The position numbers and the translations under genes were made by a program. A stretch of 64,000 bases of DNA. Source: a virus (Duplodnaviria > Heunggongvirae > Uroviricota > Caudoviricetes). Shown in pieces: positions 27,242 through 54,863 of the stretch. Below the pieces are notes generated by a model, which was not told the origin of the DNA, did not search any database, and saw nothing but the letters and a program-made list of their open reading frames with translations. Positions within the stretch are counted from its first letter, which is position 1. Every line of letters starts with the position of its first letter. The stretch covers positions 1 through 64,000 of IMG/VR virus record IMGVR_UViG_3300035698_011431; one strand, 5' to 3'.

Positions 27242-27313
27242 CCATCTTAACTCAATCGGCTAGAGGGCAGACTGTAAATCTGTTATTGCTTGGTTCGATT
27301 CCAAGAGGATGGA
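27242..27313 (+). tRNA. tRNA, anticodon GTA (Tyr) with an unusually short variable loop
   Basis: Hand-folded cloverleaf. Acceptor stem CCATCTT/AGGATGG with one G-U pair. D-arm CTCA...AGAG pairs 3 of 4. Anticodon stem GCAGA/TCTGT, loop CTGTAAA. T-arm CTTGG-TTCGATT-CCAAG. No encoded CCA. Confidence 0.5.
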
Positions 27314-27882
27314 CATTATATATAGAAGAAATTAAAATCCCTATATATAAAATCTCTAATGAGGTAAAGGGGATACAGAGTTATCCACACTCAAATTAAA
27401 TCGATACATACATGAATTTAGACGAACAACTAGAAGAATATAGAAGGCTAGTAGACAAACTAGCAGAAGAAGAACCTGAAGAGGTTGAACATATAATGGA
27501 TATTTTTAATGGTATAAATCCTTTTAAGGATAAGAAAACCCGAAAACAATGATCTAGCAGCATCTATCAACTCGTGAGCTATTAGATAGGTCGCTTGGGA
27601 CTATTAGATCAATTGCTTTTGGGGAATAGGGTGTTATAATAGAAATAGCTCAACTCAAGGACTTGACTTTCACGTCAAATAGTGTATAATAAAGAAGCTA
27701 GTAGGTGTTCGATTAAATTCGAATTAAATGCCGAACCTACAATAGGATTGAAATTTGAATAGAACGGGGGTACAGTTAGAAAGCTATAAATGGATGAGCT
27801 TGATGCTAGGTTTACGTACCCTCGTACCGAGTTCAAGCAAGTCCGTTTATAGCTTTTTATATGCCTAAATTATAATAAACAA

Positions 27883-29883: not shown

Positions 29884-30732
29884 ATGACAGGGGTCATGTC
29901 TGAAGGTTATGGAATCTTACCTAAAAAGATTCTAAAAGATAAAGAATTATCGAGTACAGCAAAACTTTTATATGTTCTTATAAGTTCATTAACTGCTAAA
30001 ACAGGATATTGTTATGCAAATAATAAATACTTGGGAAAAGAAATGGGCATTAGTGAAGTACAAGTATCGAACACCATTAAAAGGCTAGGCAAATACCTAG
30101 TAATTGAAGATCCAAAGTCTCATAAAAGGATAATCAACCTTAAAGAAAACTTTAAGGAACCACAAAGAAAACTTAAAGGTTCCTTAAAGAAAACTTTAAG
30201 GAACCACAAAGAAAACTTTAAACATAATAGTATAAGTAATAATAGTATAAAAGAAGAAGAAGGAAATTCTCCTTCTTTGGAAGAACCCACATACGTAACA
30301 GATAGAACGAGCATAAAGGAAAGTATTGGTGTATTAAAGGCGCAATTAGGGGAGAAAGCTATACAAACGGCTGATAACTATAAGCCAGACCATGATCCAC
30401 CTAACAAGCACAAGAAAAGGAGAAGCCGTTCCGAGTTACAATTATGTTATGACTATTTGTTAAGGGAAGGAGCGAGATTATTTAAGATAGAGGGGTGGAA
30501 TCCAGGACCGCAACGAAAAGCTATTCGGGCGATAATAGACAGATATCCTGATAAGTCAATTGAATATTTTAAAAAAGAAATAATAGACAGGGCAAACAAA
30601 ATGATTGAAGCTGGTTGGGTAGATGTATATGATTTTTCTAATCTAAATATACACTGGCACAAATTTGGAGAACAAAAGGTTGTTGGCAATACAACTGAAT
30701 TAAAGACAGCAGAGGAACTTCTAAAAAATTAA
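29884..30732 (+). CDS. replication initiator / replisome organiser (N-terminal HTH), containing a 36-bp x2 DNA direct repeat (ori candidate)
   Basis: The N-terminus LPKKILKDKELSSTAKLLYVLISSLT...GYCYANNKYLGKEMGISEVQVSNTIKRL is typical of phage initiators. The gene lies directly upstream of DnaB. Perfect direct repeats occur at 30139-30174 and 30183-30218. Confidence 0.5.
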   Translation: MTGVMSEGYGILPKKILKDKELSSTAKLLYVLISSLTAKTGYCYANNKYLGKEMGISEVQVSNTIKRLGKYLVIEDPKSHKRIINLKENFKEPQRKLKGSLKKTLRNHKENFKHNSISNNSIKEEEGNSPSLEEPTYVTDRTSIKESIGVLKAQLGEKAIQTADNYKPDHDPPNKHKKRRSRSELQLCYDYLLREGARLFKIEGWNPGPQRKAIRAIIDRYPDKSIEYFKKEIIDRANKMIEAGWVDVYDFSNLNIHWHKFGEQKVVGNTTELKTAEELLKN

Positions 30733-35021: not shown

Positions 35022-35199
35022 ATTAGAGTTTTATGGAGTAGTGGCGGAATAGTAGACGCATATATGAAGCGGATTCCAGTATAGTTACACTGTGGCGCAA
35101 CGGTAGCGCTTAGGGGTTTTCCCCTGCGGTTGTAGGTTCGAGTCCTACCAGTATGTAACATGCAAGGTCTTGTCCTTGCCTACTCCATTAAGCTCTAAT
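35022..35199 (+). ncRNA. tRNA-like structured element B: long terminal stem ATTAGAG..GGAGTAG / CTACTCC..CTCTAAT, A-type D-arm and T-arm modules, and a nested second cloverleaf-like insert (D-arm GCGC-AACGGTA-GCGC, T-arm GTAGG-TTCGAGT-CCTAC)
   Basis: read directly; anticodon-equivalent region of inner unit is a 4-nt-loop hairpin AGGGG-TTTT-CCCCT. Confidence 0.45.
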
Positions 35200-43372: not shown

Positions 43373-43930
43373 ATGAAATATAAAGTCATAAAAGAGTTCA
43401 TGCCTGAGGAGAAGTGGAAAGATATTACAAGTTATGAAGGTTTATATCAAATAAGTAATAAAGGAAGAGTCAAAAGTTTAATAAACAATATAATACTCAA
43501 ATTATACGATGATAGATATAACACTGTTTTTTTAAGCAAAGGGAAAAAGCAAAAATGTTATTTAGTACATAGATTGGTGGGGAAAGAATTTATTGAGAAT
43601 CCATTAGGGAAATTAGAAATAAATCATAAAGATGGGAACGGGTTAAATAATAATGAGGGGAATTTAGAGTGGTGTACTAGAGCAGAGAATGTGAGACATA
43701 CTTATAGGATCTTAGGAAGAGAGAAAACTAATCCGACCAAAGGGAAGTTTGGCAAGTTGCATTTTAGAAGCAAATTAATATATCAATATGATTTAATTGG
43801 GAACAAAATAGCCGAATATTGGGGAGGTAATGAGGCTAAAAGAAAGACGGGATATACTCAATCGCAGATAGCAAAAGCTTGTAGAGAAGGGAATGTTGTT
43901 TATGGTTATAAATGGAAATATATAAATTAA
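43373..43930 (+). CDS. HNH homing endonuclease (NUMOD4 + HNH_3 type)
   Basis: YEGLYQISNKGRVKSL (NUMOD4-like) and INHKDGNGLNNNEGNLEWCTRAENVRH (HNH_3). Confidence 0.7.
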   Translation: MKYKVIKEFMPEEKWKDITSYEGLYQISNKGRVKSLINNIILKLYDDRYNTVFLSKGKKQKCYLVHRLVGKEFIENPLGKLEINHKDGNGLNNNEGNLEWCTRAENVRHTYRILGREKTNPTKGKFGKLHFRSKLIYQYDLIGNKIAEYWGGNEAKRKTGYTQSQIAKACREGNVVYGYKWKYIN

Positions 43931-44569
43931 TTTAAACTTATGAGATATCGAGTAAAAATTGCTTTCTTCCCTGATGTAATTGTAGGGCAAATTATAGAAA
44001 GATCAGGACACGACGGTTTATTTAGGGTCCATTGTCATAGTAATGTCAATGAGTTTAATCTGCAATATATAAAATCCCACCCAGAAATCTTTGAGCCAGT
44101 AGAAGAGAGGTGGAAGCCTATAGCGGGTTGTGGCTATTATTCTGTTTATGTAGAAGGGGAAGATGACATTAATATGCACATTAGGGAGGCTGGGACTAAG
44201 TATTTCGATCGAAAATATGACATTGGCAATTGTTTCGAAACAGAAGAACAAGCCTCGGAGGCAACAAAAAGAATTAAGGAATTATTACTTAATTATCACG
44301 AAGAAATCAATGAAAAAGAAGACTAAACATTTCAATGAGGACAAACCCTCCGCATTAGGTATGGGGTTAGTTAATAATCCATATGTAGAACCTAAAGAAA
44401 AGAAGGATCCACTAGATAAAATAGCTGGAGACTTTACAGAAGGATTTATGGAAATAAGTTGGAAGGGGATTTGGAAGAAATATATAGCTCCGATACTGAA
44501 ATTCTTAACCATGGTTTTGATTATAGTAGGTTTTATATTACTTTTAACTTCAAACTTAAGGAGCACATA

Positions 44570-44821
44570 ATGCTAGTAGAGATAATTGGATATGTAGCAG
44601 CACTATTAATCTCAACAATGGCTATCCCTCAAATGGTAAAGGCCTATAAGTCAAAAAGCACAGGGGATATATCAATAATATCCCTTGTAATGAGACTTAC
44701 AGGAACTATGCTCTGGATGGTATACGCTATATCGAATAGCTTATGGCCTATGATTATAGGAAACGTTGTAATAACAATAAATTACAGCATCCTTATCTGG
44801 CTTAAGCTAAACTATAAATAG
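44570..44821 (+). CDS. PQ-loop / SemiSWEET-like three-TM membrane protein
   Basis: 84 aa from the internal Met of ORF 44459..44821, with AAGGAG 6 nt upstream; carries IPQ in the first TM (AIPQMVKAYKSKSTGDIS). Confidence 0.4.
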   Translation: MLVEIIGYVAALLISTMAIPQMVKAYKSKSTGDISIISLVMRLTGTMLWMVYAISNSLWPMIIGNVVITINYSILIWLKLNYK

Positions 44822-46404: not shown

Positions 46405-47448
46405 ATGAATTTAGATAAAATAAATAATTTAATAGAGGAGAAGTATGTCTCAGTGCAGAAACACCCTATTGAAGATTTATATATCTATAACTATACACAC
46501 AAGGCTCAATTCGAGGGGAAATGGGATAAGGAAATAAGGATATGTAGGGGATTAATTTTAGATGGGAATAGTGATATTATAGCTAGACCCATGGAAAAAT
46601 TTTTTAATTATGAAGAGGTCGAAGTTAGGGATATTGAAATACCTAAAACAGATTTTAAGGTTTATGAAAAGTTAGACGGCTCGTTAATAATTTTATTTTA
46701 TTATAAACATAAATGGCGAGTAGCTACGAGGGGAAGCTTTACTTCAGATCAGGCAATAAAAGCCCGGGAATTATTAATAAATTATCAGCAATATATAAAC
46801 AAATTTAATAGAAATTATACATATTCACTAGAAGTTATTTATAAATCGAATCGTATTGTATGTGATTATGGAGAAGATGAAAGGCTAGTATTATTAGCAG
46901 GAATAAATATAGAGACAGGCAAAGAAATAGATATAATGAATATAGATTATCCTGATAAGCCAGAAATATTGTCAGGAGTTAAAGATTACAAAGAGATTAA
47001 GGCAAAAGAAGAAAAGAATAAAGAAGGATTTGTAATTAGATATGAAAATGGATTCAGATTGAAGGTTAAGTTTGAAAATTACAAGCGTTTGCATTCTATG
47101 TTGACAGGGATGACAGCACGTAAGATATGGCAAGCTTTAAAAGATAAAGAAGAGGTAAGTAAATATTTGGAAAAAGTACCAGATGAGTTTTATAAGTTTT
47201 TTAAAGACAAAGTAAAAGAAATTGGGAATAATTATAAGGAGATAGAGAGTAAATCAATTGAATATTATAAAGAGAATAGGGGACTAGATCGAAAAGAATT
47301 AGCAATTAAAGTAAACAAAGAAAAGGATAAACGAATAATACCGATTGTATTTAGTCTTTTAGACAAAAAGGATTATTCGGAAACAATATGGAAGATGATA
47401 AAACCAAAACATGAAATGCCACTTAATCAAATAGAAGACAATGAGTAA
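46405..47448 (+). CDS. RNA ligase 1 (T4 RnlA/gp63-like)
   Basis: CRGLILDG...ARPMEKFFNYEE parallels T4 Rnl1 ECRGIMFE...SRPMEKFFNLNE; motif I KLDGSL. Confidence 0.7.
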   Translation: MNLDKINNLIEEKYVSVQKHPIEDLYIYNYTHKAQFEGKWDKEIRICRGLILDGNSDIIARPMEKFFNYEEVEVRDIEIPKTDFKVYEKLDGSLIILFYYKHKWRVATRGSFTSDQAIKARELLINYQQYINKFNRNYTYSLEVIYKSNRIVCDYGEDERLVLLAGINIETGKEIDIMNIDYPDKPEILSGVKDYKEIKAKEEKNKEGFVIRYENGFRLKVKFENYKRLHSMLTGMTARKIWQALKDKEEVSKYLEKVPDEFYKFFKDKVKEIGNNYKEIESKSIEYYKENRGLDRKELAIKVNKEKDKRIIPIVFSLLDKKDYSETIWKMIKPKHEMPLNQIEDNE

Positions 47449-48292
47449 AATTTACATGACCTGTGGCTTACCTGCAAGTGGGAAAAGTACATGGGCGAAA
47501 CAATATATAAAGGAGAATCCTAACACTAAAATCGTAAATAAAGATTCTTTTAGGGCAATGTTAGATAATGGAAAATGGTCAAAGGGAAATGAAAAGTTTG
47601 TTTTAGAAGTTAGGGATTTAATAATAATCGCAGCATTAAAACAAGGTAAAGATATTATAGTAGACGATACTAATTTTAATATTGTTCACTTGAAAAGAAT
47701 AGAAGAAATAGCAGAAAAGCATAATGCAGAGGTGGAAATAAAAGATAGTTTTTTGGATATTCCATTGGATGAATGTATTGAGAGAGATAAGAAAAGAGAA
47801 GGCAGTGTTGGGGAAAAAGTTATTCGAGGGATGTATGACAAATATTTAAAGGAAAAGGATTATGTAAGACAAGACAAAGAATTATCAAAGGCTGTTGTCT
47901 TTGACGTCGATGGGACTTTAACTACAGGTCCTAAAGACAGAAGTCCCTATGAATGGAGTAAGGTTGGACAAGACGAACTATGTCAAGAAGTATATAATGC
48001 GTATAAGCTATACAAAGAAGCTGGATATAAAATAATAATCTTTACAGGACGTGATGGGTGTTGTGAAAAGGAGACAAAGGAATGGTTAAAAAAATATAAT
48101 ATAGAGTATGATTATTTTGATATTAGACCATTGGGAAACGCCGAAAACGATGCTATAATAAAGGAAAGGATGGTAAAGGAAATCTTAGATAAATATTACA
48201 TAGAAGTGGTTTTCGATGACAGAAATCGTGTTTGTAAAAAATGGCGTCAGCTAGGATTCAAATGTTATCAAGTGGCGTGTGGGGATTTTTAA
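47441..48292 (+). CDS. polynucleotide 5'-kinase / 3'-phosphatase (T4 PseT-like)
   Basis: P-loop GLPASGKST at N-terminus; HAD phosphatase motif VVFDVDGTLT in C-terminal half. Confidence 0.85.
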   Translation: MSKIYMTCGLPASGKSTWAKQYIKENPNTKIVNKDSFRAMLDNGKWSKGNEKFVLEVRDLIIIAALKQGKDIIVDDTNFNIVHLKRIEEIAEKHNAEVEIKDSFLDIPLDECIERDKKREGSVGEKVIRGMYDKYLKEKDYVRQDKELSKAVVFDVDGTLTTGPKDRSPYEWSKVGQDELCQEVYNAYKLYKEAGYKIIIFTGRDGCCEKETKEWLKKYNIEYDYFDIRPLGNAENDAIIKERMVKEILDKYYIEVVFDDRNRVCKKWRQLGFKCYQVACGDF

Positions 48293-48302
48293 GAATATTT
48301 AA

Positions 48303-49430
48303 ATGACTATGAAAAGAAAATTAGCTAGTATACAAATAATCGAGTCTTTGGAAGAAATCCCTAATGCAGATAGGATTGAAGTTGCAACTGTTTTGGGATG
48401 GCATTTAGTAGTAAAGAAAGGACAGTTCGAGGTTGGGGATAAATGTGTATATTTTGAAACTGATTCTCTCCTTCCGATAAAAAAAGAGTTTGAGTTTTTG
48501 GCAAAAGATGGGACAAAGAAAATAATTGGAGATGATAATAAAGAATATGAAGGATATCGGCTGAAAACTATAAAGTTGAGAAAACAAATATCTAGTGGCT
48601 TGGCATTATCGCTAAATGAATTAAAGGTAAAGGGGAGCGAAGGGGATGATCTAACAAAAGAGTTAGGGATAATAAAATATGAAGCATTGTCTATTGGAAC
48701 AAATGTTTCAAGTAAAAGACCGGTAGTTTTTCCAAAGTGGATTCCAAAAGGGATAGGGGTTTTTATTAAAAGACATTTTCCTAAGACTGCACGAAAATTG
48801 TGGGGAAAGTCTTTGAGAAGTTTTCCTTCTTATATAGAGAAAACAGATGAAATAAGAATACAAGGTTCTCCTAAGATATTAGAACGACATAAGGATAAAA
48901 AGTTTTATGTAACAGAGAAATTGGATGGTTCTAGTGTTACGATATTTAGGGAAAAGGATAAAACTCAAGTTTGTAGTAGAAAGGTATGGCTTCCAAGGGA
49001 AGACGGCAATCAGTTTTGGGATGCGGTAACTAAGATTGAGGATAAGTTAAATGATTTGGAAGATATAGCATTACAGGGGGAATTAGTAGGGGTAGGGATT
49101 CAAAAGAACCCATTAAAAATGAAGGATAGAAAGATATATTTCTTTAATGCGTATGATTATCAAAAAGGAGAATATCTTAATTTCAAAGAATTCCAGGGAC
49201 TAATAACTAGGCTTGGATTAGAAACTGTTCCTATAATAGAAACAAGTTATAGGCTTCCAGAAACAATTGATGAAATGGTAGAGTATAGTACAAGGAAATC
49301 GACAATAGCAAAAGAAGAGTGGGCAGAAGGATTAGTATTTAGATCTTTAGAAGAAACTCAAGATCAAAGGATTGGTAGGTTAAGTTTTAAATGTATAAAC
49401 CCTAGCTTTCTTCTAGCACATGGGGATTAA
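48303..49430 (+). CDS. second ATP-dependent polynucleotide ligase (KxDG nucleotidyltransferase; RNA ligase candidate) with N-terminal OB-like domain
   Basis: motif I TEKLDGSSV, downstream ligase-like motifs; family assignment uncertain. Confidence 0.5.
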   Translation: MTMKRKLASIQIIESLEEIPNADRIEVATVLGWHLVVKKGQFEVGDKCVYFETDSLLPIKKEFEFLAKDGTKKIIGDDNKEYEGYRLKTIKLRKQISSGLALSLNELKVKGSEGDDLTKELGIIKYEALSIGTNVSSKRPVVFPKWIPKGIGVFIKRHFPKTARKLWGKSLRSFPSYIEKTDEIRIQGSPKILERHKDKKFYVTEKLDGSSVTIFREKDKTQVCSRKVWLPREDGNQFWDAVTKIEDKLNDLEDIALQGELVGVGIQKNPLKMKDRKIYFFNAYDYQKGEYLNFKEFQGLITRLGLETVPIIETSYRLPETIDEMVEYSTRKSTIAKEEWAEGLVFRSLEETQDQRIGRLSFKCINPSFLLAHGD

Positions 49431-49572: not shown

Positions 49573-50088
49573 TTGTTTAGAGGGTTTGTACTTTACAAAT
49601 CAATGTTGAAAGTACCAAGTCTAAAAGATATTAGACCGTATTACCCTAAGCTTAATAAAACAACAAAATCAGACAGATCGAGTATATTATGGCATCAATT
49701 AGAATACTGGTTTTGGGTAGTATGGGAAACTAAAAAGAAGAAGAACTTTTATAAATTCATAGAGCCACCAAAGAAAAACAGAGGAGACTATAAAATAGGG
49801 GATAGCTGGAGTGAAGAGTTAGGGTTTACAAAGAGAATATACAGAAATGCCTTTGATAAGATAGGGGTAAGATGGGAAAGCTCAACTCATTTGAAATTAG
49901 CAATAGAGGAGTATGGAGAAGATATAAAGTTCAATAATAGGATGTATTGTAGTGTATATAGCAAGGCAAACAAGAAAAACTTTTATTATAGAAACGAGCA
50001 ATTAGTGAATAATTTGATAAAAGAAAACGAATATGAAGTGTACTTTGACTTTGATAAAAAGATATTAAAAGAACTGTCAAAAGAATAA
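49573..50088 (+). CDS. hypothetical protein
   Basis: 171-aa ORF; nested inverted repeats upstream (49505-49595). Confidence 0.35.
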   Translation: MFRGFVLYKSMLKVPSLKDIRPYYPKLNKTTKSDRSSILWHQLEYWFWVVWETKKKKNFYKFIEPPKKNRGDYKIGDSWSEELGFTKRIYRNAFDKIGVRWESSTHLKLAIEEYGEDIKFNNRMYCSVYSKANKKNFYYRNEQLVNNLIKENEYEVYFDFDKKILKELSKE

Positions 50089-50096
50089 CAGGGTAC

Positions 50097-50160
50097 GAAA
50101 TGTACCCCCAACCATGTAACAAAACGTACCCCCAAAACCAGTTTGGGGGTACGAAAAGTC
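50097..50160. promoter_or_regulatory. cluster of GTACCCCC palindromes (ACGTACCCCCAAAACCAGTTTGGGGGTACG ~14-bp arms; plus GGGTACGAAATGTACCCCC) upstream of ParB-like gene
   Basis: read directly. Confidence 0.45.
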
Positions 50161-50255
50161 CTGTGGTAAACAAAGAGTACCTATCAAAGACTACTAACAG
50201 ATATAATGTAAATTAAATTTAATTTACATTCTCCTTTAACCCAATAACTAATATA

Positions 50256-50771
50256 ATGGAAATAAAAAACATACCAATAGAAGAAATCAATGTAATAGGA
50301 GATAATCCTAGAGAGTTATCAGATGAAAGATTTGAAGCTCTAAAAAAGTATGCCAAGAAATATGGTTTGCTTACTCCATTAGTAGTAGACAAGAGAAGCA
50401 ATAGTTTAATCGGAGGACATTCAAGATTATTAGCTATTAAAGAGCTAGGATGGAAAGAAGTACCTTGTAATATGGTAGAGCCAAAAGACGATTCAGAAAG
50501 GAAAGAAATGCAGTTAATAGACAATGAACAGTTTGGACATTGGATAGAAGATGAGTTGGTAGTTTTCGTTAAAGACACTGGAATAATACTAGAAGACTAC
50601 GAAATACAAACAGATAGTATTAGTTTAGATGAAATAGTTAATGGGGAGGACGTAGATATAGATGATTTCTTCAGGGAGAAAACAGACGAAGAGAAAGAAA
50701 AGGAAAGGGAGGAAGAACAAGAAAAAAAAGAAATTAAATGTCCCAAATGTGGATTTTTATTTGAAAGATGA
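50256..50771 (+). CDS. ParB/Srx-fold nuclease-domain protein with C-terminal Zn-ribbon (DpdB-like partner of DpdA?)
   Basis: IGDNPRELSDERFEALKKYAKKYGLLTPLVVDKRSNSLIGGHSRLLAIKELG fits ParB N-terminal domain; CPKCG at end. Confidence 0.6.
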   Translation: MEIKNIPIEEINVIGDNPRELSDERFEALKKYAKKYGLLTPLVVDKRSNSLIGGHSRLLAIKELGWKEVPCNMVEPKDDSERKEMQLIDNEQFGHWIEDELVVFVKDTGIILEDYEIQTDSISLDEIVNGEDVDIDDFFREKTDEEKEKEREEEQEKKEIKCPKCGFLFER

Positions 50772-51676
50772 AAATATTTTTAGCAAATACTTATTCGTCT
50801 TGGAGGGGGGATATATTAGAGAATTATATGAAAATTTATTTAGCGGGGACACTTACAGGGAATAATAGTTATATTTACCGAGATATGAATGTACATTTAG
50901 TTGATTTAAAAAGAATAAAAAAAGACATGGAAATTTTTATAGCGAGAGGGAATTGCGGGTGGATGACTGGGAAAGAGATAAAATTCAATGATTTTCTCGA
51001 TATATATATACTTGAGAGTTTTTTCTATTTAGATGATTGGATGAAGGTCTTAATAAAAAAGAAGGTGTTTAAAAGGTTTTTATTGGATAGCGGAGCATTT
51101 ACGTTCATGACAGGGGTTGGTGGGGAAGTAAACTGGGAGGAATATGTTGATAAATATGCAAAATTCATAAAAGAATATGATGTAGAATTATTCTTTGAAC
51201 TAGACATTGATTCAGTTGTAGGGTTGAAGAAGGTTGAAGAGCTCCGAGGAAGGTTGGAAGAGAAATCGGGAAAAAGGTGTATCCCTGTTTGGCATAAATC
51301 AAGAGGGAAGGAGTACTTTATAAAAATGTGCGAAGAATATAATTATGTAGCAATAGGGGGGATAGTTACTAAGGAAATAACAGGGAGAGAACATAAGCAT
51401 TTCCCCTGGCTAATAGATATAGCTCATCAAAATAATGCTAAGATTCATGGATTAGGATATACAAACTTAAAAGGATTAAAGAAGTATCATTTCGATTCGG
51501 TAGATTCAACTGCATGGATATATGGGAACAGGGGAGGGTATTTATATAAATTTACAGGCAACACTTTAAAGCAAATACAGTCACCGGAGGGGCTTAGATT
51601 AAAAGGGAGAGAAGCGGCTATACATAATTTTCAAGAATGGATAAAATTTCAAAAATACGCAGATAAAAATTTATAA
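50768..51676 (+). CDS. dpdA: tRNA-guanine-transglycosylase-like protein, DpdA-type DNA 7-deazaguanine transglycosylase (putative)
   Basis: LLDSGAFTF resembles the catalytic TDSGGFQ of TGT; placed between ParB-like and queDEC-folE. Confidence 0.55.
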   Translation: MKIFLANTYSSWRGDILENYMKIYLAGTLTGNNSYIYRDMNVHLVDLKRIKKDMEIFIARGNCGWMTGKEIKFNDFLDIYILESFFYLDDWMKVLIKKKVFKRFLLDSGAFTFMTGVGGEVNWEEYVDKYAKFIKEYDVELFFELDIDSVVGLKKVEELRGRLEEKSGKRCIPVWHKSRGKEYFIKMCEEYNYVAIGGIVTKEITGREHKHFPWLIDIAHQNNAKIHGLGYTNLKGLKKYHFDSVDSTAWIYGNRGGYLYKFTGNTLKQIQSPEGLRLKGREAAIHNFQEWIKFQKYADKNL

Positions 51677-51681
51677 AAACT

Positions 51682-52026
51682 ATGTATAAACTAAAATACG
51701 AAACACAATTCGCAGCAGCTCACCAATTAAAGACAGCTTATTCAAAGGAATGTAATGACTTTTTACATGGGCATAATTGGGAAGTAATTGCTGAAATAGA
51801 GACTAAAGAGCTTGTTAATGATATGGTAATAGACTTTAAAAAATTAAAAGAAATTATTCATAAGTTAGATCATAAAAACTTAGTAGATATATTACCATTT
51901 CAAACAACAGCAGAAAACATAGCAAAGTATCTACATAACGAAATAAAAAAAGAAGTTAAACAAGAGTCTAAGGTTACAATTAAATTATGGGAGGCAGAAA
52001 AGTCTTGCATAGAATATTATGTTTAA
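51682..52026 (+). CDS. queD: 6-carboxy-5,6,7,8-tetrahydropterin synthase
   Basis: 114 aa; CNDFLHGHNWEV (Cys-x3-HGH) signature. Confidence 0.8.
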   Translation: MYKLKYETQFAAAHQLKTAYSKECNDFLHGHNWEVIAEIETKELVNDMVIDFKKLKEIIHKLDHKNLVDILPFQTTAENIAKYLHNEIKKEVKQESKVTIKLWEAEKSCIEYYV

Positions 52027-52921
52027 AGAAGGAAAGGATAATATTAACTATAAAGACGGCAAAACAAAGATGTTAAAGGATAAATTGGAAAACATTGACA
52101 ATTGCCTATTATGTGGGTCTGAGTTCTACTTACTTGTTCATCATCTTGATGGGAATCATGGTAATAACGTAGATGAAAACTTAAAAGTTATGTGTCATCA
52201 GTGTCATGATGTGATTCATCAAAAAGGTTTAAATTTTCACAACAAAAAATGGAAGATAAAAACAAGCGAGGATTTTTTGTCTATACAAGGAGAAGGGGTA
52301 ACGTGTGGGACACCTTCTCTTTTTATTAGGTTATTTGGGTGTACAACAAATTGCCCTTGGTGTGATACGAATTATTCTAAGGGTGATAATGCGTATAAAG
52401 AATACAATTATAAAGAGATAGCGAATTTAATCATTTGTTATGCCAAAAAGAGTTCTATAAGAAATTTAGTAATAACAGGGGGAGAGCCTTTGGAACAATC
52501 TGTCCAGCCTTTGATTATGATAGCGAAACTCTTAGGGTATAGGATAGAGATAGAAACTAACGGCAAGCCAATAGCAGATGGGAATAAATTCATATTACCC
52601 TCTTTTGTTGACCAGTTTAATATTTCACCTAAGTTATGGAGTAAAGAAAAAGTAAGGACATTTAGAAAAGATAGGATAAAAAAATTAATGCAAGTAAATT
52701 CTATTTTTAAATTTGTAGTAAAAACAAGCGAGGATTTTAGGATAGTAGAAGAAATGATAAAGAGAGGGGTTGATAAAGAGAGGGTATGGCTTATGCCACT
52801 AACGGGAGATAAGGATGAAAAAAAGACAATGGGGGTTGTTTGGGATTATTGTGTAAAAAATAAACTTAAGTTTTCGGCTCGGATACATTATTTATTATTC
52901 GGTAACAAAAGAAACATATGA
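52019..52921 (+). CDS. queE: 7-carboxy-7-deazaguanine synthase (radical SAM) with an N-terminal Cys/His-rich HNH-like extension
   Basis: FGCTTNCPWCDT radical-SAM cluster motif; extra N-terminal LCGSE...HHLDGNHGNN...CHQCHDVIH segment. Confidence 0.7.
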   Translation: MFKEGKDNINYKDGKTKMLKDKLENIDNCLLCGSEFYLLVHHLDGNHGNNVDENLKVMCHQCHDVIHQKGLNFHNKKWKIKTSEDFLSIQGEGVTCGTPSLFIRLFGCTTNCPWCDTNYSKGDNAYKEYNYKEIANLIICYAKKSSIRNLVITGGEPLEQSVQPLIMIAKLLGYRIEIETNGKPIADGNKFILPSFVDQFNISPKLWSKEKVRTFRKDRIKKLMQVNSIFKFVVKTSEDFRIVEEMIKRGVDKERVWLMPLTGDKDEKKTMGVVWDYCVKNKLKFSARIHYLLFGNKRNI

Positions 52922-53571
52922 AAACAATTGTAGTATTAAGCGGAGGATTAGATTCAACAACAGTATTATATAATCTTCTAGATAGAAAACATGAAGTAAA
53001 GGCTATATCTTTTGATTATGGGCAAAGACATAAAAAGGAATTAGATTATGCTAAACAGACAACGGATAAATTGGGGATAGAACATGAGGTCATTGATATG
53101 GCTTTTATGAAGAAATATATAAGCAATTCGGCTTTAACAGGTGATATAGAAGTACCAGAAGGGCATTACGAGGATGAGAACATGAAACAAACAGTAGTAC
53201 CGAATAGAAACATGATAATGGCGAGTATAGCGATAGGTTATGCAGTTAATATTGATTATGATGGAGTAGCGTTGGGAGTTCATTTAGGAGATCATGAAGT
53301 TTATCCAGACTGTAGGCCAGAATTTATTTATGCGTTAAAGGTTATTGCTTTAGTATCCAATTACAAAAAGATAAGGATTATAACTCCATATTTATATGTA
53401 TGTAAAGATGGGATAGTAAAAGACGGAATTAGATTAAAGGCAGATTATTCAAAGACATGGACATGTTATAAAGGAGGTGATCTTGCTTGTGGTAAATGTG
53501 GATCATGTCAAGAGAGGCTAGAAGCGTTTAATGATAATAATATTAAAGATCCAATCGAATATGACAAATGA
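52918..53571 (+). CDS. queC: 7-cyano-7-deazaguanine (preQ0) synthase
   Basis: PP-loop [11 protein letters not shown]; C-terminal zinc motif [11 protein letters not shown]. Confidence 0.85.
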
Positions 53572-54403
53572 AATAAAATGGTTAAAGGAAAAGATAGGTA
53601 AGAAAAAGGTTTACGGAATACCTAAAGGAGGATTGATTGTAGCTGGGTTAGCAGGTTTAAACATAGTAGAGACTCCAGAAGAGGCGGAGATAATAGTTGA
53701 TGATTTAATTGATAGTGGGGAAACAATAAAAAAGTATATAGGGAAGAAGGAGATTTATGTATTATATGTAAAACCACATTCCCCTTATAGGGATAAGATA
53801 AATTACTTTAAGGAGGAAGAAGGATGGGTAGAATTTTGGTGGGAGGATAAAGAAAAAGATCAGAAGGATTTAGTTATAAGGGAATTAGAATACATAGGGG
53901 AGAATCCAAAGAGAGAGGGGTTATTAGATACTCCAAATAGGGTAATCAAATCGTGGAATAAATTGTATGAAGGATATAAAACAAATCCAGATGATATTTT
54001 AACGGTCTTTACTAATGAATCAAAGATAGATCAAATAGTGGGATTATCAAACATAGAATTTTATTCAACATGTGAACATCACTTATTGCCGTTTTTTGGG
54101 AAAGCTCATATTTATTACATTCCAAATAAAAAAGGAAAGATTGTAGGAATAAGTAAACTTGCGAGAATAGTTGACATATATGCTAGACGGTTACAGAATC
54201 AAGAAAGGTTGTCAAAACAAATAGCAGATCTAATTGAAGAGAAGTTAGAACCAAAGGGAACGGCGGTAATATTAGAAGCTCAACATTTTTGCATGAAAGC
54301 TCGAGGAGTAGAGAAGGAAAATGCTATAATGAAAACATCTGATTTGAGGGGAGCATTTAGAAAAAATGAAAAGGCTCGCATGGAATTATTCCAATTAATA
54401 TAA
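53561..54403 (+). CDS. folE: GTP cyclohydrolase I (FolE), with ~100-aa N-terminal extension carrying a PRTase-like [10 protein letters not shown] motif
   Basis: [10 protein letters not shown]...[20 protein letters not shown]...RRLQNQERL are FolE hallmarks; alternative upstream start at 53531 in ORF track. Confidence 0.8.
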
Positions 54404-54429
54404 ACAACAGTTAAGTAACATATAAACAC

Positions 54430-54457
54430 TTGACAAACTATTTCGGTTTGCTATAAT
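54430..54457 (+). promoter_or_regulatory. sigma70-like promoter TTGACA-16-TATAAT plus conserved leader (duplicate of 32402 module)
   Basis: read directly. Confidence 0.5.
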
Positions 54458-54488
54458 TAACTCATAATCAATTAAGCAAATAAAACAA

Positions 54489-54863
54489 ATGAAATACGAT
54501 TATGAAGATCTAATGGAAATCACAAGTTTAAGGCATAAAATGCACGTCTGTAATGACGTAACAGAATGGATAGGATTACTAGAATCAGCTCACGAGAATT
54601 TAAAAGAATTAAAAATCAAAGATAGTGGGATAGCTAGATACGATATAGGTGATTTACCACAATGCGAAAAAGATGATTGCGGATATGAAGGAGGAGAATC
54701 ATGTGATTATTGCGATGAAATGGAAGAAGCATTTCTAGATGAAAAAAAAGAAGAAGTTAATACTCAAATCGAATCTTTTTTAGAGAAGTGCGAAGAGAAA
54801 CACGGTATTGAAAATTTAGCACCCACGGGGATAGCAAGATATAATTGGATAAAATCAGTTTAA
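54489..54863 (+). CDS. hypothetical acidic Cys-rich protein with internal GIARY repeat
   Basis: 124-aa ORF. Confidence 0.4.
   Translation: MKYDYEDLMEITSLRHKMHVCNDVTEWIGLLESAHENLKELKIKDSGIARYDIGDLPQCEKDDCGYEGGESCDYCDEMEEAFLDEKKEEVNTQIESFLEKCEEKHGIENLAPTGIARYNWIKSV

What the first reader, a model, noticed from the sequence alone, without database searches (positions are those of the whole stretch)
50097..54403. 7-deazaguanine DNA-modification cluster (ParB-like + DpdA-like + queD-queE-queC-folE) with GTACCCCC palindromes upstream
folE, queD, queE and queC together make preQ0. The TGT-like protein (LLDSGAFTF) and the upstream ParB-fold protein match the DpdA/DpdB pair that, by established knowledge, inserts 7-deazaguanines into DNA. 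This predicts that the phage genome is hypermodified (dPreQ0 or a derivative) to evade restriction. Just upstream (50097-50160) are nested palindromes built on GTACCCCC/GGGGGTAC, a plausible binding site for the ParB-like protein or the modification target context. queE carries an unusual N-terminal Cys/His-rich HNH-like extension, and folE an N-terminal PRTase-like extension ([10 protein letters not shown]).
Basis: partly seen in the sequence, partly recalled or inferred. Interest (0 to 1): 0.6.

Follow-up and report, generated by a model that had tools for sequence, protein, structure and literature searches.

The report
Phage 7-deazaguanine DNA-modification operon
This uncultured phage carries a six-gene operon that should make the modified base preQ0 and swap it for guanine in its own DNA to escape host restriction enzymes; this is a known strategy, here with an undescribed, conserved ParB-type partner gene and two unusual enzyme fusions.

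Summary
Window 50256-54403 is a tightly packed plus-strand operon: ParB_N protein, DpdA-like transglycosylase, QueD, HNH-QueE, QueC, PRTase-FolE.

- **DpdA.** It has no Pfam, NCBIfam or PDB sequence match. Its model has the TGT fold, and its family profile aligns with the experimentally validated phage 9g DpdA (98.8%, E 9e-17), with the catalytic motifs conserved.
- **Predicted product.** I found no QueF, ArcS, Gat, DpdC-like or DpdL homologue, so dPreQ0 is the expected base.
- **ParB-like protein.** It is not a DpdB orthologue. It is a 171-aa ParB/Noc-type N-domain with a disordered tail and no HTH. A ParB-like gene sits immediately upstream of this DpdA clade in 56/60 viral loci and 58/63 bacterial-genome loci, even where que genes are absent. 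It is therefore very probably a functional partner, analogous to DpdB.
- **Fusions.** The PRTase-FolE fusion recurs widely. The HNH-QueE fusion is rare but conserved.
- **GTACCCCC palindromes.** They are real and locally enriched, but unique to this phage and absent from related loci. Nothing supports a ParB site or a modification target.

Verdict: a new variant of a known system, of moderate interest.

The parts
50091..50107 (.). Small inverted repeat GGGTAC-GAAAT-GTACCC, the first GTACCC(CC) unit, directly after the stop codon of ORF 49573-50088
   Evidence: first hairpin in the MFE structure; one search lists it as terminator-like on the minus strand
50125..50153 (.). Perfect 12-bp-stem hairpin CGTACCCCCAAA-ACCAG-TTTGGGGGTACG. 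It has an A-tract before it and no T-tract after it on the + strand. It is specific to this phage and its function is unresolved (an RNA structure or protein site at the operon boundary)
   Evidence: z -5.2; one of about 7 perfect hairpins with a stem of at least 9 bp in 64 kb; canonical terminator only for the minus strand; not conserved
50205..50230 (.). Perfect 26-bp AT-rich palindrome AATGTAAATTAAA|TTTAATTTACATT overlapping a TATAAT (50202-50207), 26 nt upstream of the parB-like ATG. Candidate operator and -10 element of the operon
   Evidence: no good -35 was found, so promoter function is an inference
50256..50771 (+). ParB/Noc-type N-domain protein of 171 aa. It has the boxes NPR, GGHSR and DN, then a DVDIDDFF motif, an acidic Lys/Glu linker and a C-terminal CPKCG knuckle. 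It is the conserved upstream partner of DpdA, translationally coupled to it by an ATGA overlap
   Evidence: adjacency statistics
50768..51676 (+). DpdA-type DNA guanine transglycosylase of 302 aa. Residues 1-75 hold four Met-initiated 'MKIYLAG'-like units. The catalytic TIM-barrel core starts at about aa 79 (ILESF, LLDSGAFTF, IPVWH, YVAIGGIV, KIHGLG, FDSVDSTAW)
51682..52026 (+). QueD (6-carboxytetrahydropterin synthase), 114 aa
   Evidence: PTPS, 87.8 bits against a cutoff of 22.4; TIGR03367, 2.1e-20, below the equivalog cutoff
52019..52921 (+). HNH-QueE fusion of 300 aa. Residues 26-80 (52094-52258) form a complete HNH/zinc motif, CxxC..HH..N..N..CxxCH..H, preceded by a GxxNxNY motif. Residues 82-300 are the radical-SAM QueE with CX3CX2C
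   Evidence: fusion conserved in P0122-P0126; an identical protein occurs in independent assemblies (P0121)
52918..53571 (+). QueC (7-cyano-7-deazaguanine synthase), 217 aa, with no Gat fusion
   Evidence: TIGR00364, 212.7 bits against a cutoff of 150.3; only the QueC part of 9g Gat-QueC matches
53531..54403 (+). PRTase-FolE fusion. A mini XGPRT-type phosphoribosyltransferase domain (probable true start at ATG 53561, through about 53866) is followed by GTP cyclohydrolase I (about 53867-54403)
54430..54457 (+). Perfect sigma-70 consensus (TTGACA-16-TG-TATAAT) directly after the folE stop. It marks the downstream boundary of the operon and the start of the next transcription unit
   Evidence: 12/12 matches

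Best explanation
The six genes form one operon that lets the phage replace guanines in its own DNA with 7-cyano-7-deazaguanine (preQ0), giving dPreQ0 DNA that resists host restriction. FolE, QueD, QueE and QueC convert GTP to free preQ0. The DpdA-type transglycosylase then exchanges guanine for preQ0 in double-stranded phage DNA after replication. These steps follow from established pathway knowledge and are not demonstrated for this phage. The upstream ParB/Noc-type N-domain protein is inferred to be an obligate accessory of this DpdA clade. It would be an NTP-binding, DNA-associated module that helps DpdA engage or scan DNA, functionally analogous to bacterial DpdB but recruited from a different branch of the ParB superfamily. 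The purine-PRTase domain fused to FolE is inferred to channel guanine, including the guanine released by each base exchange, back to GMP and then GTP, feeding the pathway. The HNH domain fused to QueE is a conserved nuclease or DNA-binding module of homing-endonuclease type whose role is unknown. The upstream GTACCCCC hairpins are a phage-specific structured element at the operon boundary and are not part of the conserved module.
For: Pathway enzymes: FolE 1e-65, QueC 4.9e-66, QueD 7e-25, QueE radical SAM plus phrog_2076 8.6e-48. Diagnostic motifs are visible in the translations: CEHH and HFCM in FolE, CX3CX2C in QueE, SGGLDS and the Cys cluster in QueC. DpdA: phrog_887 2e-51; AF2 pLDDT 82.6; top 40 Foldseek PDB hits are all TGT or ArcTGT; hhalign against 9g DpdA gives 98.8%, E 9e-17, with ILES, LDSGAF, GG-V, K-HG-G (9g His196) and DS-DS-W aligned. 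D107, D146, D148, D246, H176 and H227 are invariant in 40 homologues. No QueF, ArcS, DUF328/DUF6884, Gat, DpdL or YhhQ was found in the 40 ORFs scanned by Pfam or in a phmmer search of all window ORFs, so dPreQ0 is the expected end product. ParB partner: a ParB-like ORF lies immediately upstream of dpdA in 56/60 non-redundant viral loci and 58/63 loci in bacterial genome assemblies. Of those 58, 26 have no que gene within 4 kb. The pair persists while the que gene order varies (window D-E-C-FolE; L092 FolE-D-E-C; most loci C-D-E-FolE). The pair also occurs in cultured Fusobacterium phage phiFN37. The ParB boxes are retained (N17, G54, R57, N90), and the fold matches CTP-bound ParB, Noc and KorB N-domains. 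PRTase: the family profile hits purine PRTase and XGPRT structures at 4e-10 to 3e-7. There are 458 cluster representatives, and 9 of the 9 long ones tested are PRTase-FolE fusions. The domain is free-standing inside a que cluster in L074.
Against: No chemistry was measured. DpdA activity, its substrate (preQ0 versus another 7-deazaguanine) and its target motif are all inferred. Characterised phage DpdAs (9g, nt-1, VH7D) insert preQ0 in E. coli without any ParB partner (PMC6884629, PMC10516641), and 9g has no ParB gene beside dpdA, so a partner is not a general requirement. The ParB-like protein has no recognisable DNA-binding domain beyond the N-domain, and its C-terminal 60 residues are predicted disordered. 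The window's PRTase copy carries substitutions at two near-invariant positions (PRGG to PKGG, FPWE to FWWE) and lacks about 40 residues of canonical XGPRT, so it may be inactive or regulatory. Only about a quarter of related loci carry the PRTase. Structural-module ORFs of the window were checked only by phmmer with a few reference queries, not by Pfam.
Confidence: 0.75

Rival explanations
1. The ParB-like gene is functionally unrelated to DpdA. It could be a nuclease, a transcription factor or a partition remnant, and it merely travels with dpdA because of conserved synteny. In that case DpdA works alone, like phage 9g DpdA.
For: Validated phage DpdAs work without a partner (PMC6884629, PMC10516641). 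9g lacks an adjacent ParB. ParB_N proteins are common in phages in many contexts, and phiFN37 has three copies. About 7% of loci lack a detectable ParB-like ORF upstream.
Against: Adjacency holds in 114 of 123 loci across very diverse hosts (Bacteroidales, Clostridia, Veillonella, Collinsella, Staphylococcus). It survives shuffling or complete loss of the que genes. The stop and start codons overlap in the window (ATGA) and in many relatives. The same ParB_N module is fused to DNA methyltransferases (PDLC03229 1.5e-13, phrog_498 1e-22) and is linked to another phage DNA-modification system (PMC12783734). This points to a general role with DNA-modifying enzymes.
Confidence: 0.15
2. The module modifies tRNA rather than DNA. 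It would supply preQ0 and a TGT-like enzyme to put a 7-deazaguanine into tRNA, for example the phage's own tRNA-Tyr(GUA).
For: The fold is that of tRNA-guanine transglycosylases. The window encodes a tRNA-Tyr with anticodon GTA, a queuosine-family tRNA. A tRNA-repair module (Rnl1, Pnkp, Rnl2-like) lies directly upstream.
Against: The sequence relationship is to DNA-acting phage 9g DpdA. No TGT is detected by Pfam, NCBIfam or PDB sequence searches. The protein is about 80 residues shorter than bacterial TGT and has no conserved Cys/His zinc site (invariant list). No QueF, QueA or QueG is present. Its conserved partner belongs to a DNA-associated superfamily.
Confidence: 0.04
3. preQ0 is incorporated at the nucleotide level. 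The PRTase domain would attach preQ0 to PRPP, as proposed for ToyH in toyocamycin biosynthesis (my recollection, not checked here), and the resulting nucleotide would be used by a polymerase. DpdA would be auxiliary.
For: A purine-type PRTase is fused to the first pathway enzyme and recurs in many que clusters.
Against: DpdA is present in all related loci, whereas the PRTase is present in only about a quarter. No kinase or reductase needed to reach a dNTP is evident in the operon. The published view is that all known 7-deazaguanine DNA modifications are made after replication (PMC10516641).
Confidence: 0.04
4. The GTACCCCC inverted repeats are the loading or recognition site (parS-like) for the ParB-like protein, or they display the DpdA target context.
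For: The motif is locally enriched (3 of 4 copies in 51 bp). It is palindromic and lies directly upstream of the parB-like gene, as parS sites often do.
Against: No comparable palindrome lies upstream of ParB-DpdA in about 50 related loci. A few have ordinary A-stem-T terminators instead. The motif is absent from the closest relatives L092-L094 and from IMG/VR. The ParB-like protein has no HTH domain. A modification target would be spread over the genome, but there is only one other copy in 64 kb.
Confidence: 0.07

Closest known systems
Phage DpdA1 plus preQ0-pathway clusters (Enterobacteria phage 9g, CAjan, Pseudomonas phage iggy; Queuovirinae)
   Same: Same enzyme set (FolE, QueD, QueE, QueC, DpdA). 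The DpdA is homologous to 9g DpdA, with His196 and the Asp motifs conserved. With plain QueC and no QueF or ArcS, the expected product is dPreQ0, as measured for iggy (PMC10484667) and CAjan (PMC7544227).
   Different: No DNA similarity to any deposited phage, and DpdA identity to deposited phages is at most 46%. DpdA has an N-terminal array of Met-initiated repeats. A ParB_N partner gene is coupled upstream, which is absent in 9g. QueE carries an HNH domain and FolE a PRTase domain.
Bacterial Dpd system, DpdA/DpdB (Salmonella Montevideo; PMC10164549)
   Same: A TGT-fold DNA transglycosylase encoded next to a ParB-superfamily protein. In bacteria the ParB-fold protein is an ATPase required for preQ0 insertion.
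   Different: DpdB is about 44 kDa and belongs to the DndB subgroup, with a DGQQR motif and an SspE-like C-terminal helical domain. The phage protein is 171 aa, has the ParB/Noc-type boxes (NPR, GGHSR, DN), and gives no DpdB hit. There is no DpdC and there are no restriction genes dpdD-K. The DpdA is not recognised by the NCBIfam or PADLOC models.
ParB_N (ParBc) domains fused to or encoded beside DNA-modifying enzymes (ParB-methyltransferase fusions; CmoX carboxymethylcytosine clusters, PMC12783734)
   Same: The window protein aligns over residues 1-156 with the N-terminal module of type II DNA methyltransferases (PDLC03229 1.5e-13; phrog_498 1.1e-22; tblastn hits to phage adenine methyltransferases).
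   Different: Here the module is free-standing and paired with a base-exchanging transglycosylase rather than a methyltransferase. The role of the module is unknown in all these contexts.
Fusobacterium phage phiFN37 (OR492271)
   Same: The closest cultured phage with the same ParB-like then DpdA pair (35% DpdA identity, overlapping genes).
   Different: phiFN37 has no preQ0 synthesis genes next to the pair. Instead it has a DUF6884 protein (weakly DpdC/DUF328-like) and a YhhQ-type precursor transporter, which suggests precursor salvage and perhaps dADG rather than de novo dPreQ0.

Membership tests
Phage DpdA (DpdA1-type DNA guanine transglycosylase) | Detectable homology to an experimentally validated phage DpdA (9g) | tested here: met
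   hhalign of family profile A1 against 9g gp3: 98.8% probability, E 9.3e-17, 176 aligned columns; phrog_887 2.1e-51
Phage DpdA (DpdA1-type DNA guanine transglycosylase) | TGT-like TIM-barrel fold | tested here: met
   AF2 pLDDT 82.6, pTM 0.83. Foldseek PDB ranks 1-40 are all TGT or archaeosine TGT, E 8.6e-6 to 1e-3, TM 0.37-0.52
Phage DpdA (DpdA1-type DNA guanine transglycosylase) | Conserved active-site motifs, including the His at 9g position 196 that DpdA2 lacks (PMC6884629) | tested here: met
   LDSGAF, DSVDSTAW and KIHGLG are invariant in 40 homologues. H227 aligns with 9g H196
Phage DpdA (DpdA1-type DNA guanine transglycosylase) | Exchange of guanine for preQ0 in DNA | not testable with these tools
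   Needs LC-MS of DNA or an in vitro exchange assay
DpdA2 (Vibrio phage nt-1 type) | Homology to nt-1 DpdA2; absence of the His196 equivalent | not tested
   No nt-1 sequence was fetched. The presence of the His196 equivalent argues against membership
DpdA3 (Cellulophaga phiST / Campylobacter CP220 type) | Homology to phiST CGPG_00065 | tested here: not met
   hhalign of A1 against CGPG_00065: probability 0.1%, E 0.48. The neighbouring gene CGPG_00066 is not ParB-like
DpdA4 (archaeal virus HVTV-1 type, DUF6610) | Match to Pfam PF20314 | tested here: not met
   No PF20314 hit at E <= 0.01
Bacterial DpdB | DndB-subgroup ParB-fold protein with a DGQQR/DGQHR motif | tested here: not met
   The motif is GGHSR, aligned to GERR of Noc. 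NCBIfam gives only Noc/ParB models and PADLOC only methyltransferase N-domains. Foldseek top hits are CTP-binding ParB, Noc and KorB, and SspE is not among the 50 hits listed
Bacterial DpdB | About 390-aa architecture with a C-terminal SspE-like helical domain | tested here: not met
   171 aa. Residues 114-171 are predicted disordered, apart from a CPKCG knuckle
Bacterial DpdB | Conserved genomic coupling to dpdA | tested here: met
   56/60 viral loci and 58/63 genome loci; ATGA overlap in the window
Bacterial DpdB | NTPase activity required for preQ0 insertion | not testable with these tools
   Only the retention of the ParB nucleotide-pocket residues N17, G54, R57 and N90 is shown
Canonical ParB/parS partition protein | Central HTH DNA-binding domain and a cognate parS palindrome | tested here: not met
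   No HTH in the model or in Pfam. The upstream palindrome is not conserved in relatives
preQ0 biosynthesis pathway (FolE, QueD, QueE, QueC) | All four enzymes present with family-level matches | tested here: met
   FolE TIGR00063 216 bits (cutoff 181.6); QueC TIGR00364 212.7 bits (cutoff 150.3); QueD Pfam PTPS 87.8 bits (cutoff 22.4); QueE Radical_SAM 44.7 bits (cutoff 29.5) plus phrog_2076 8.6e-48. The QueD and QueE NCBIfam equivalogs score below their cutoffs
Type I purine phosphoribosyltransferase (XGPRT-like) | PRPP-binding loop (acidic pair, then D-[ST]-G-x-T), PPi loop and C-terminal W-x-x-P-W-E | tested here: inconclusive
   The family profile hits 1vdm at 3.9e-10 and XGPRTs at 1e-8 to 3e-7. 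D47, D48 and T55 are invariant. The domain is about 40 residues shorter than XGPRT, and the window copy has R22K and P93W
HNH (beta-beta-alpha-metal) endonuclease | CxxC..HH..N..N..CxxCH..H motif | tested here: met
   The motif is complete in the window and conserved in the five fusion homologues; phrog_1271 2.4e-9, ZorE HNH 1.8e-6. Nuclease activity was not tested

The most novel reading that the evidence does not exclude
This large, Pfam-invisible DpdA clade (5,554 cluster representatives at E <= 0.001) would be a two-component phage DNA transglycosylase. A minimal ParB/Noc-type NTP-binding N-domain protein would be required to load or activate DpdA on DNA. That would be an independent, convergent recruitment of a ParB-fold NTPase to 7-deazaguanine insertion, alongside bacterial DpdB of the DndB branch. 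It would also give a tractable model for what free or fused ParB_N modules do for DNA-modifying enzymes in general. In addition, the PRTase-FolE fusion would close a guanine-recycling loop: guanine expelled by DpdA would go to GMP, GTP and then preQ0.
Probability: 0.35. Interest if true: 0.65.

Novelty: new variant of a known kind. Interest (0 to 1): 0.45.

Why it matters
7-Deazaguanine hypermodification is an established phage counter-defence, so the core of this finding is expected biology.

Three things are new in the literature I could search.

- A very large DpdA clade, common in gut and environmental prophages of Bacteroidales, Clostridia, Veillonella and others, is almost always encoded behind a small ParB_N protein.
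- That clade often carries a purine PRTase fused to FolE.
- More rarely it carries an HNH domain fused to QueE.

Why bacterial DpdA needs the ParB-fold ATPase DpdB is described as an enigma (PMC10164549), and the role of ParB_N modules attached to DNA methyltransferases is called unknown (PMC12783734). A minimal 171-aa partner paired with a 300-aa transglycosylase would be a simple system in which to test both questions.

In practice, these genes currently escape Pfam and NCBIfam annotation, so phage DNA hypermodification is probably under-called in metagenomes.

Tried and rejected
- **DNA similarity to deposited phages.** A blastn 'distant' search of 50000-54500 found nothing.
- **Sequence searches of DpdA against PDB.** The single-sequence search and the 40-sequence profile search found no TGT or DpdA. 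Only the fold search and profile-profile comparison show the relationship.
- **Pfam, NCBIfam and PADLOC on DpdA.** No meaningful hit. The only Pfam hit was a sub-threshold diphthamide-synthase match.
- **Conservation of the GTACCCCC palindrome.** It was not found upstream of ParB in related loci or in the closest relatives, and IMG/VR has no exact match. A looser pattern in the metagenome collection returned 120 unrelated chance matches.
- **Intrinsic terminator on the coding strand.** Rejected, because the + strand has no T-tract. The pattern scan calls the hairpin a terminator only for the minus strand.
- **preQ1 or other riboswitches.** Rfam at gathering thresholds finds only two tRNAs in the window.
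- **DpdA3 and DpdA4 membership.** Rejected. phiST CGPG_00066 as a ParB analogue was also rejected.
- **Structure prediction of the ParB-like protein.** I repeated the job with 15 database homologues.
- **Bacillus phage BCD7's 757-aa DpdA.** I checked it for a fused NTPase or ParB domain and found no Pfam hit.
- **DNA-level tandem repeats under the DpdA N-terminal repeats.** None was found.

Full report
**Observation**

Window 50256-54403 holds six co-directional, abutting or overlapping ORFs.

| Coordinates | Product | Main evidence |
|---|---|---|
| 50256-50771 | ParB_N protein | PF02195 1e-9; phrog_620 8e-31 |
| 50768-51676 | 302-aa protein with LLDSGAFTF | phrog_887 'queuine tRNA-ribosyltransferase' 2e-51; no Pfam or NCBIfam family |
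| 51682-52026 | QueD | PTPS 7e-25 |
| 52019-52921 | QueE with N-terminal HNH | radical SAM; phrog_2076 8.6e-48; HNH phrog_1271 2.4e-9; ZorE-type HNH 1.8e-6 |
| 52918-53571 | QueC | 4.9e-66; TIGR00364 above cutoff |
| 53531-54403 | FolE with N-terminal PRTase | 1e-65; TIGR00063 above cutoff; PRTase phrog_8995 1.7e-5; xanthine PRTase 1e-4 |

The parB-like stop and the dpdA start overlap as ATGA.

The palindromes are real.
- GTACCCCC occurs four times in 64 kb against 0.5 expected, and three copies lie within 51 bp.
- A perfect 12-bp-stem hairpin sits at 50125-50153 and a 6-bp one at 50091-50107.
- The segment folds at -35.4 kcal/mol, z = -5.2.

**Is 50768-51676 a DpdA?**

Sequence searches alone are nearly blind to this protein.
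- PDB finds nothing with the single sequence or with a 40-sequence profile.
- None of the 120 best homologues listed, out of 5,554 with E <= 0.001, has a precomputed Pfam domain.

Three independent lines nevertheless place it in the DpdA family.
- The PHROG profile matches.
- A confident AlphaFold model (pLDDT 82.6, pTM 0.83) has only tRNA-guanine or archaeosine transglycosylases as its 40 best PDB matches.
- A profile-profile alignment with the experimentally validated DpdA of phage 9g gives 98.8% probability and E 9e-17. The motifs ILES, LDSGAF, P-x-x-H, GG-x-V, K-x-HG-x-G and DS-x-DS-x-x-W are in register.

The His in KIHGLG corresponds to 9g His196, which the DpdA2 subfamily is reported to lack (PMC6884629).

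The family shows no relationship to DpdA3 of phiST (0.1%). It gives no hit to DUF6610, the DpdA4 family, and no hit to the NCBIfam or PADLOC models. I therefore file it as a divergent DpdA1-like clade.

**Expected product**

The four preQ0 enzymes are intact, judged by family scores and by the diagnostic motifs visible.

Pfam scans covered 30 further window ORFs. A phmmer screen of all window ORFs used Gat-QueC, DUF6884 (DpdC-like), YhhQ and DpdL queries. Neither found a QueF, ArcS, Gat, DpdC-like, DpdL or transporter gene.

By analogy with phages that carry plain QueC and DpdA only (PMC10484667, PMC7544227), the predicted base is dPreQ0. This is an inference; no chemistry is available.

**The ParB-like protein**

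It is not a DpdB orthologue. DpdB is a ~44 kDa, DndB-subgroup protein with a DGQQR motif and an SspE-like C-terminal domain (PMC10164549, PMC5699537). The window protein differs in each of these respects.
- It is 171 aa long.
- Its N-domain aligns with Noc and ParB: NPR, GGHSR aligned to GERR, and DN aligned to EN.
- Its model matches CTP-bound ParB, Noc, KorB and PadC N-domains.
- Residues 114-171 are a disordered acidic linker ending in a CPKCG knuckle.
- It has no HTH.

Its nearest relatives in deposited phages are free-standing 'ParB-like nuclease domain' proteins and the N-terminal module of DNA adenine methyltransferases.

The genomic coupling to DpdA is very strong.
- Among IMG/VR and assembly loci, 56 of 60 non-redundant loci with enough upstream sequence have a ParB-like ORF immediately upstream of dpdA. 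At least two of the four exceptions still carry one: L006 has a divergent ParB-like ORF and L031 a split dpdA. L024 (a 445-aa longest-ORF call) and L058 (two overlapping DpdA-like ORFs) were not resolved.
- In an independent sample of bacterial genome assemblies, the figure is 58 of 63. Of those 58, 26 have no que gene within 4 kb.
- The pair is kept while the que genes are reordered or lost. It is also present in cultured Fusobacterium phage phiFN37.
- In the partner family, N17, G54 and N90 are invariant and R57 nearly so. A D-[IL]-D-x-D-x-F-F motif is nearly invariant. The C-terminal tail comes in three types.

I conclude that the ParB_N protein is very probably a functional partner of this DpdA clade. 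It would be analogous to DpdB but recruited from a different branch of the superfamily.

I found no description of this pairing for phages in the searchable literature. PMC12783734 notes that ParBc modules accompany other phage DNA-modifying enzymes and that their role is unknown.

**PRTase-FolE**

The N-terminal roughly 100 residues form a trimmed XGPRT-type purine PRTase, with G-I-P-[RK]-[10 protein letters not shown]-x-T and W-x-x-F-P-W-E.
- A 16-sequence profile hits purine PRTase 1vdm at 3.9e-10 and XGPRTs at 1e-8 to 3e-7.
- The domain occurs in at least 15 distinct related loci. In L074 it is free-standing, between queC and queD.
- An exhaustive search finds 458 cluster representatives. 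All nine long ones tested are PRTase-GTP cyclohydrolase I fusions, and one of them has an HNH intein in FolE.
- Homologue P0266 and the alignment suggest that the true start is ATG 53561.
- The window copy has substitutions at two near-invariant positions (R22K, P93W).

My inference is guanine salvage into the GTP pool that feeds FolE, which would neatly recycle the guanine expelled by DpdA. A regulatory role or a preQ0-ribosylating role cannot be excluded. No paper combining these terms was found.

**HNH-QueE**

The fusion is not an assembly artefact.
- The identical protein occurs in independent assemblies (P0121).
- Five homologues at 39-58% identity share the extension, with the CxxC..HH..N..N..CxxCH..H residues and a preceding GxxNxNY motif conserved. 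One of them sits in a different que cluster.
- The closest DpdA relatives (L092, L093) have a plain 197-aa QueE.
- There is no paralogue of this HNH in the window. A separate NUMOD4/HNH_3 homing endonuclease lies at 43373-43930.

The role of the fused domain is unknown.

**The palindromes**

Nothing ties them to the ParB-like protein or to DpdA.
- About 50 related ParB-DpdA loci lack any comparable element. A few have ordinary A-stem-T terminators at that position.
- The closest relatives and IMG/VR lack the motif.
- Only one other copy occurs in the window.
- The protein has no HTH.
- On the coding strand the hairpin has no U-tract. The pattern scan calls it a terminator only for the minus strand.

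It is best described as a phage-specific structured element in the 167-nt gap that separates the preceding genes from the operon. Immediately downstream lies a perfect 26-bp AT-rich palindrome that overlaps a TATAAT, 26 nt before the parB-like ATG. This is a better operator or promoter candidate. A 12/12 sigma-70 consensus directly after folE marks the next transcription unit.

**Verdict**

- It is right only by analogy about 'DpdB'.
- It is unsupported about the palindromes.

The system is a new variant of a known kind. The chemistry is expected. The variant features are the conserved ParB_N partner of a very large unannotated DpdA clade, the PRTase-FolE and HNH-QueE fusions, and the odd Met-initiated repeat array at the DpdA N-terminus. 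Together they make it moderately interesting and experimentally tractable.

Noticed in passing
window 50768-50990 (DpdA residues 1-75); homologues P0001-P0120: The DpdA N-terminus is an array of short units that each begin with Met: MKIFLAN, MKIYLAG, MNVHLVD, MEIFIAR. In 120 homologues there are 1-5 units (mode 3), spaced about 17-20 aa apart. The first residue is Met in 279 of 316 units. The unit resembles the core's own first strand (IYILESF). Only unit 2 is modelled as a confident strand. The units could be tandem duplications of the 5' end or alternative start sites; this is unexplained.
   Followed up: partly
window 46405-49430: Directly upstream of the operon region lies a tRNA/RNA-repair set: an Rnl1-type RNA ligase (46405-47448), a polynucleotide kinase-phosphatase (47441-48292) and a second RNA ligase with a PHA02142 OB domain (48303-49430). 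This looks like another anti-defence module, probably against anticodon nucleases.
   Followed up: no
window 27242-27314 and 35086-35156: A tRNA-Tyr with anticodon GTA, which belongs to the queuosine-family tRNAs, and a second tRNA whose anticodon ARAGORN could not assign.
   Followed up: no
window 27760-27870: An intergenic stretch holds the only other GGGGGTAC copy, a partner GTACCCTC 50 nt downstream, and an AAGCTATAAA...TTTATAGCTT hairpin. It may be a structured RNA. Rfam gives no hit at gathering threshold.
   Followed up: no
window 50205-50230: A perfect 26-bp AT-rich palindrome overlaps a TATAAT just upstream of the parB-like start. It is a candidate operator for the operon.
   Followed up: partly
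window 30178-30205: A perfect 12-bp-arm palindrome (GGTTCCTTAAAG-AAAA-CTTTAAGGAACC) lies inside the HTH_36 gene (29884-30732), next to the DnaB-like helicase gene. It may be a replication-origin element.
   Followed up: no
window 43373-43930: A free-standing NUMOD4 + HNH_3 homing endonuclease, unrelated in sequence to the HNH fused to QueE.
   Followed up: no
window 44459-44821: A 120-aa PQ-loop (SemiSWEET-like) membrane protein encoded among the early or middle genes.
   Followed up: no
L001 7826-8849 (Fusobacterium phage phiFN37); L096 12020-12448: A DUF6884 protein with weak similarity to the DpdC family (PF03883, 3.4e-5) follows DpdA in phiFN37. A DUF6884 gene also lies two genes downstream of queC in the L096 que cluster, after an unannotated 281-aa ORF. 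It may be a phage counterpart of DpdC that converts dPreQ0 to dADG. It is absent from the window.
   Followed up: partly
protein P0284 (571 aa): A PRTase-FolE fusion whose FolE domain is interrupted by an intein carrying an HNH_3 endonuclease. This is a second case of HNH elements invading this pathway's genes.
   Followed up: no
alignment A2 (ParB-like partners), window residues 132-139: A nearly invariant acidic-aromatic motif, D-[IL]-D-x-D-x-F-F, lies between the ParB N-domain and the variable tail. It loosely resembles a clamp-binding (PIP-like) peptide. It could be the DpdA-docking or clamp-docking element.
   Followed up: no
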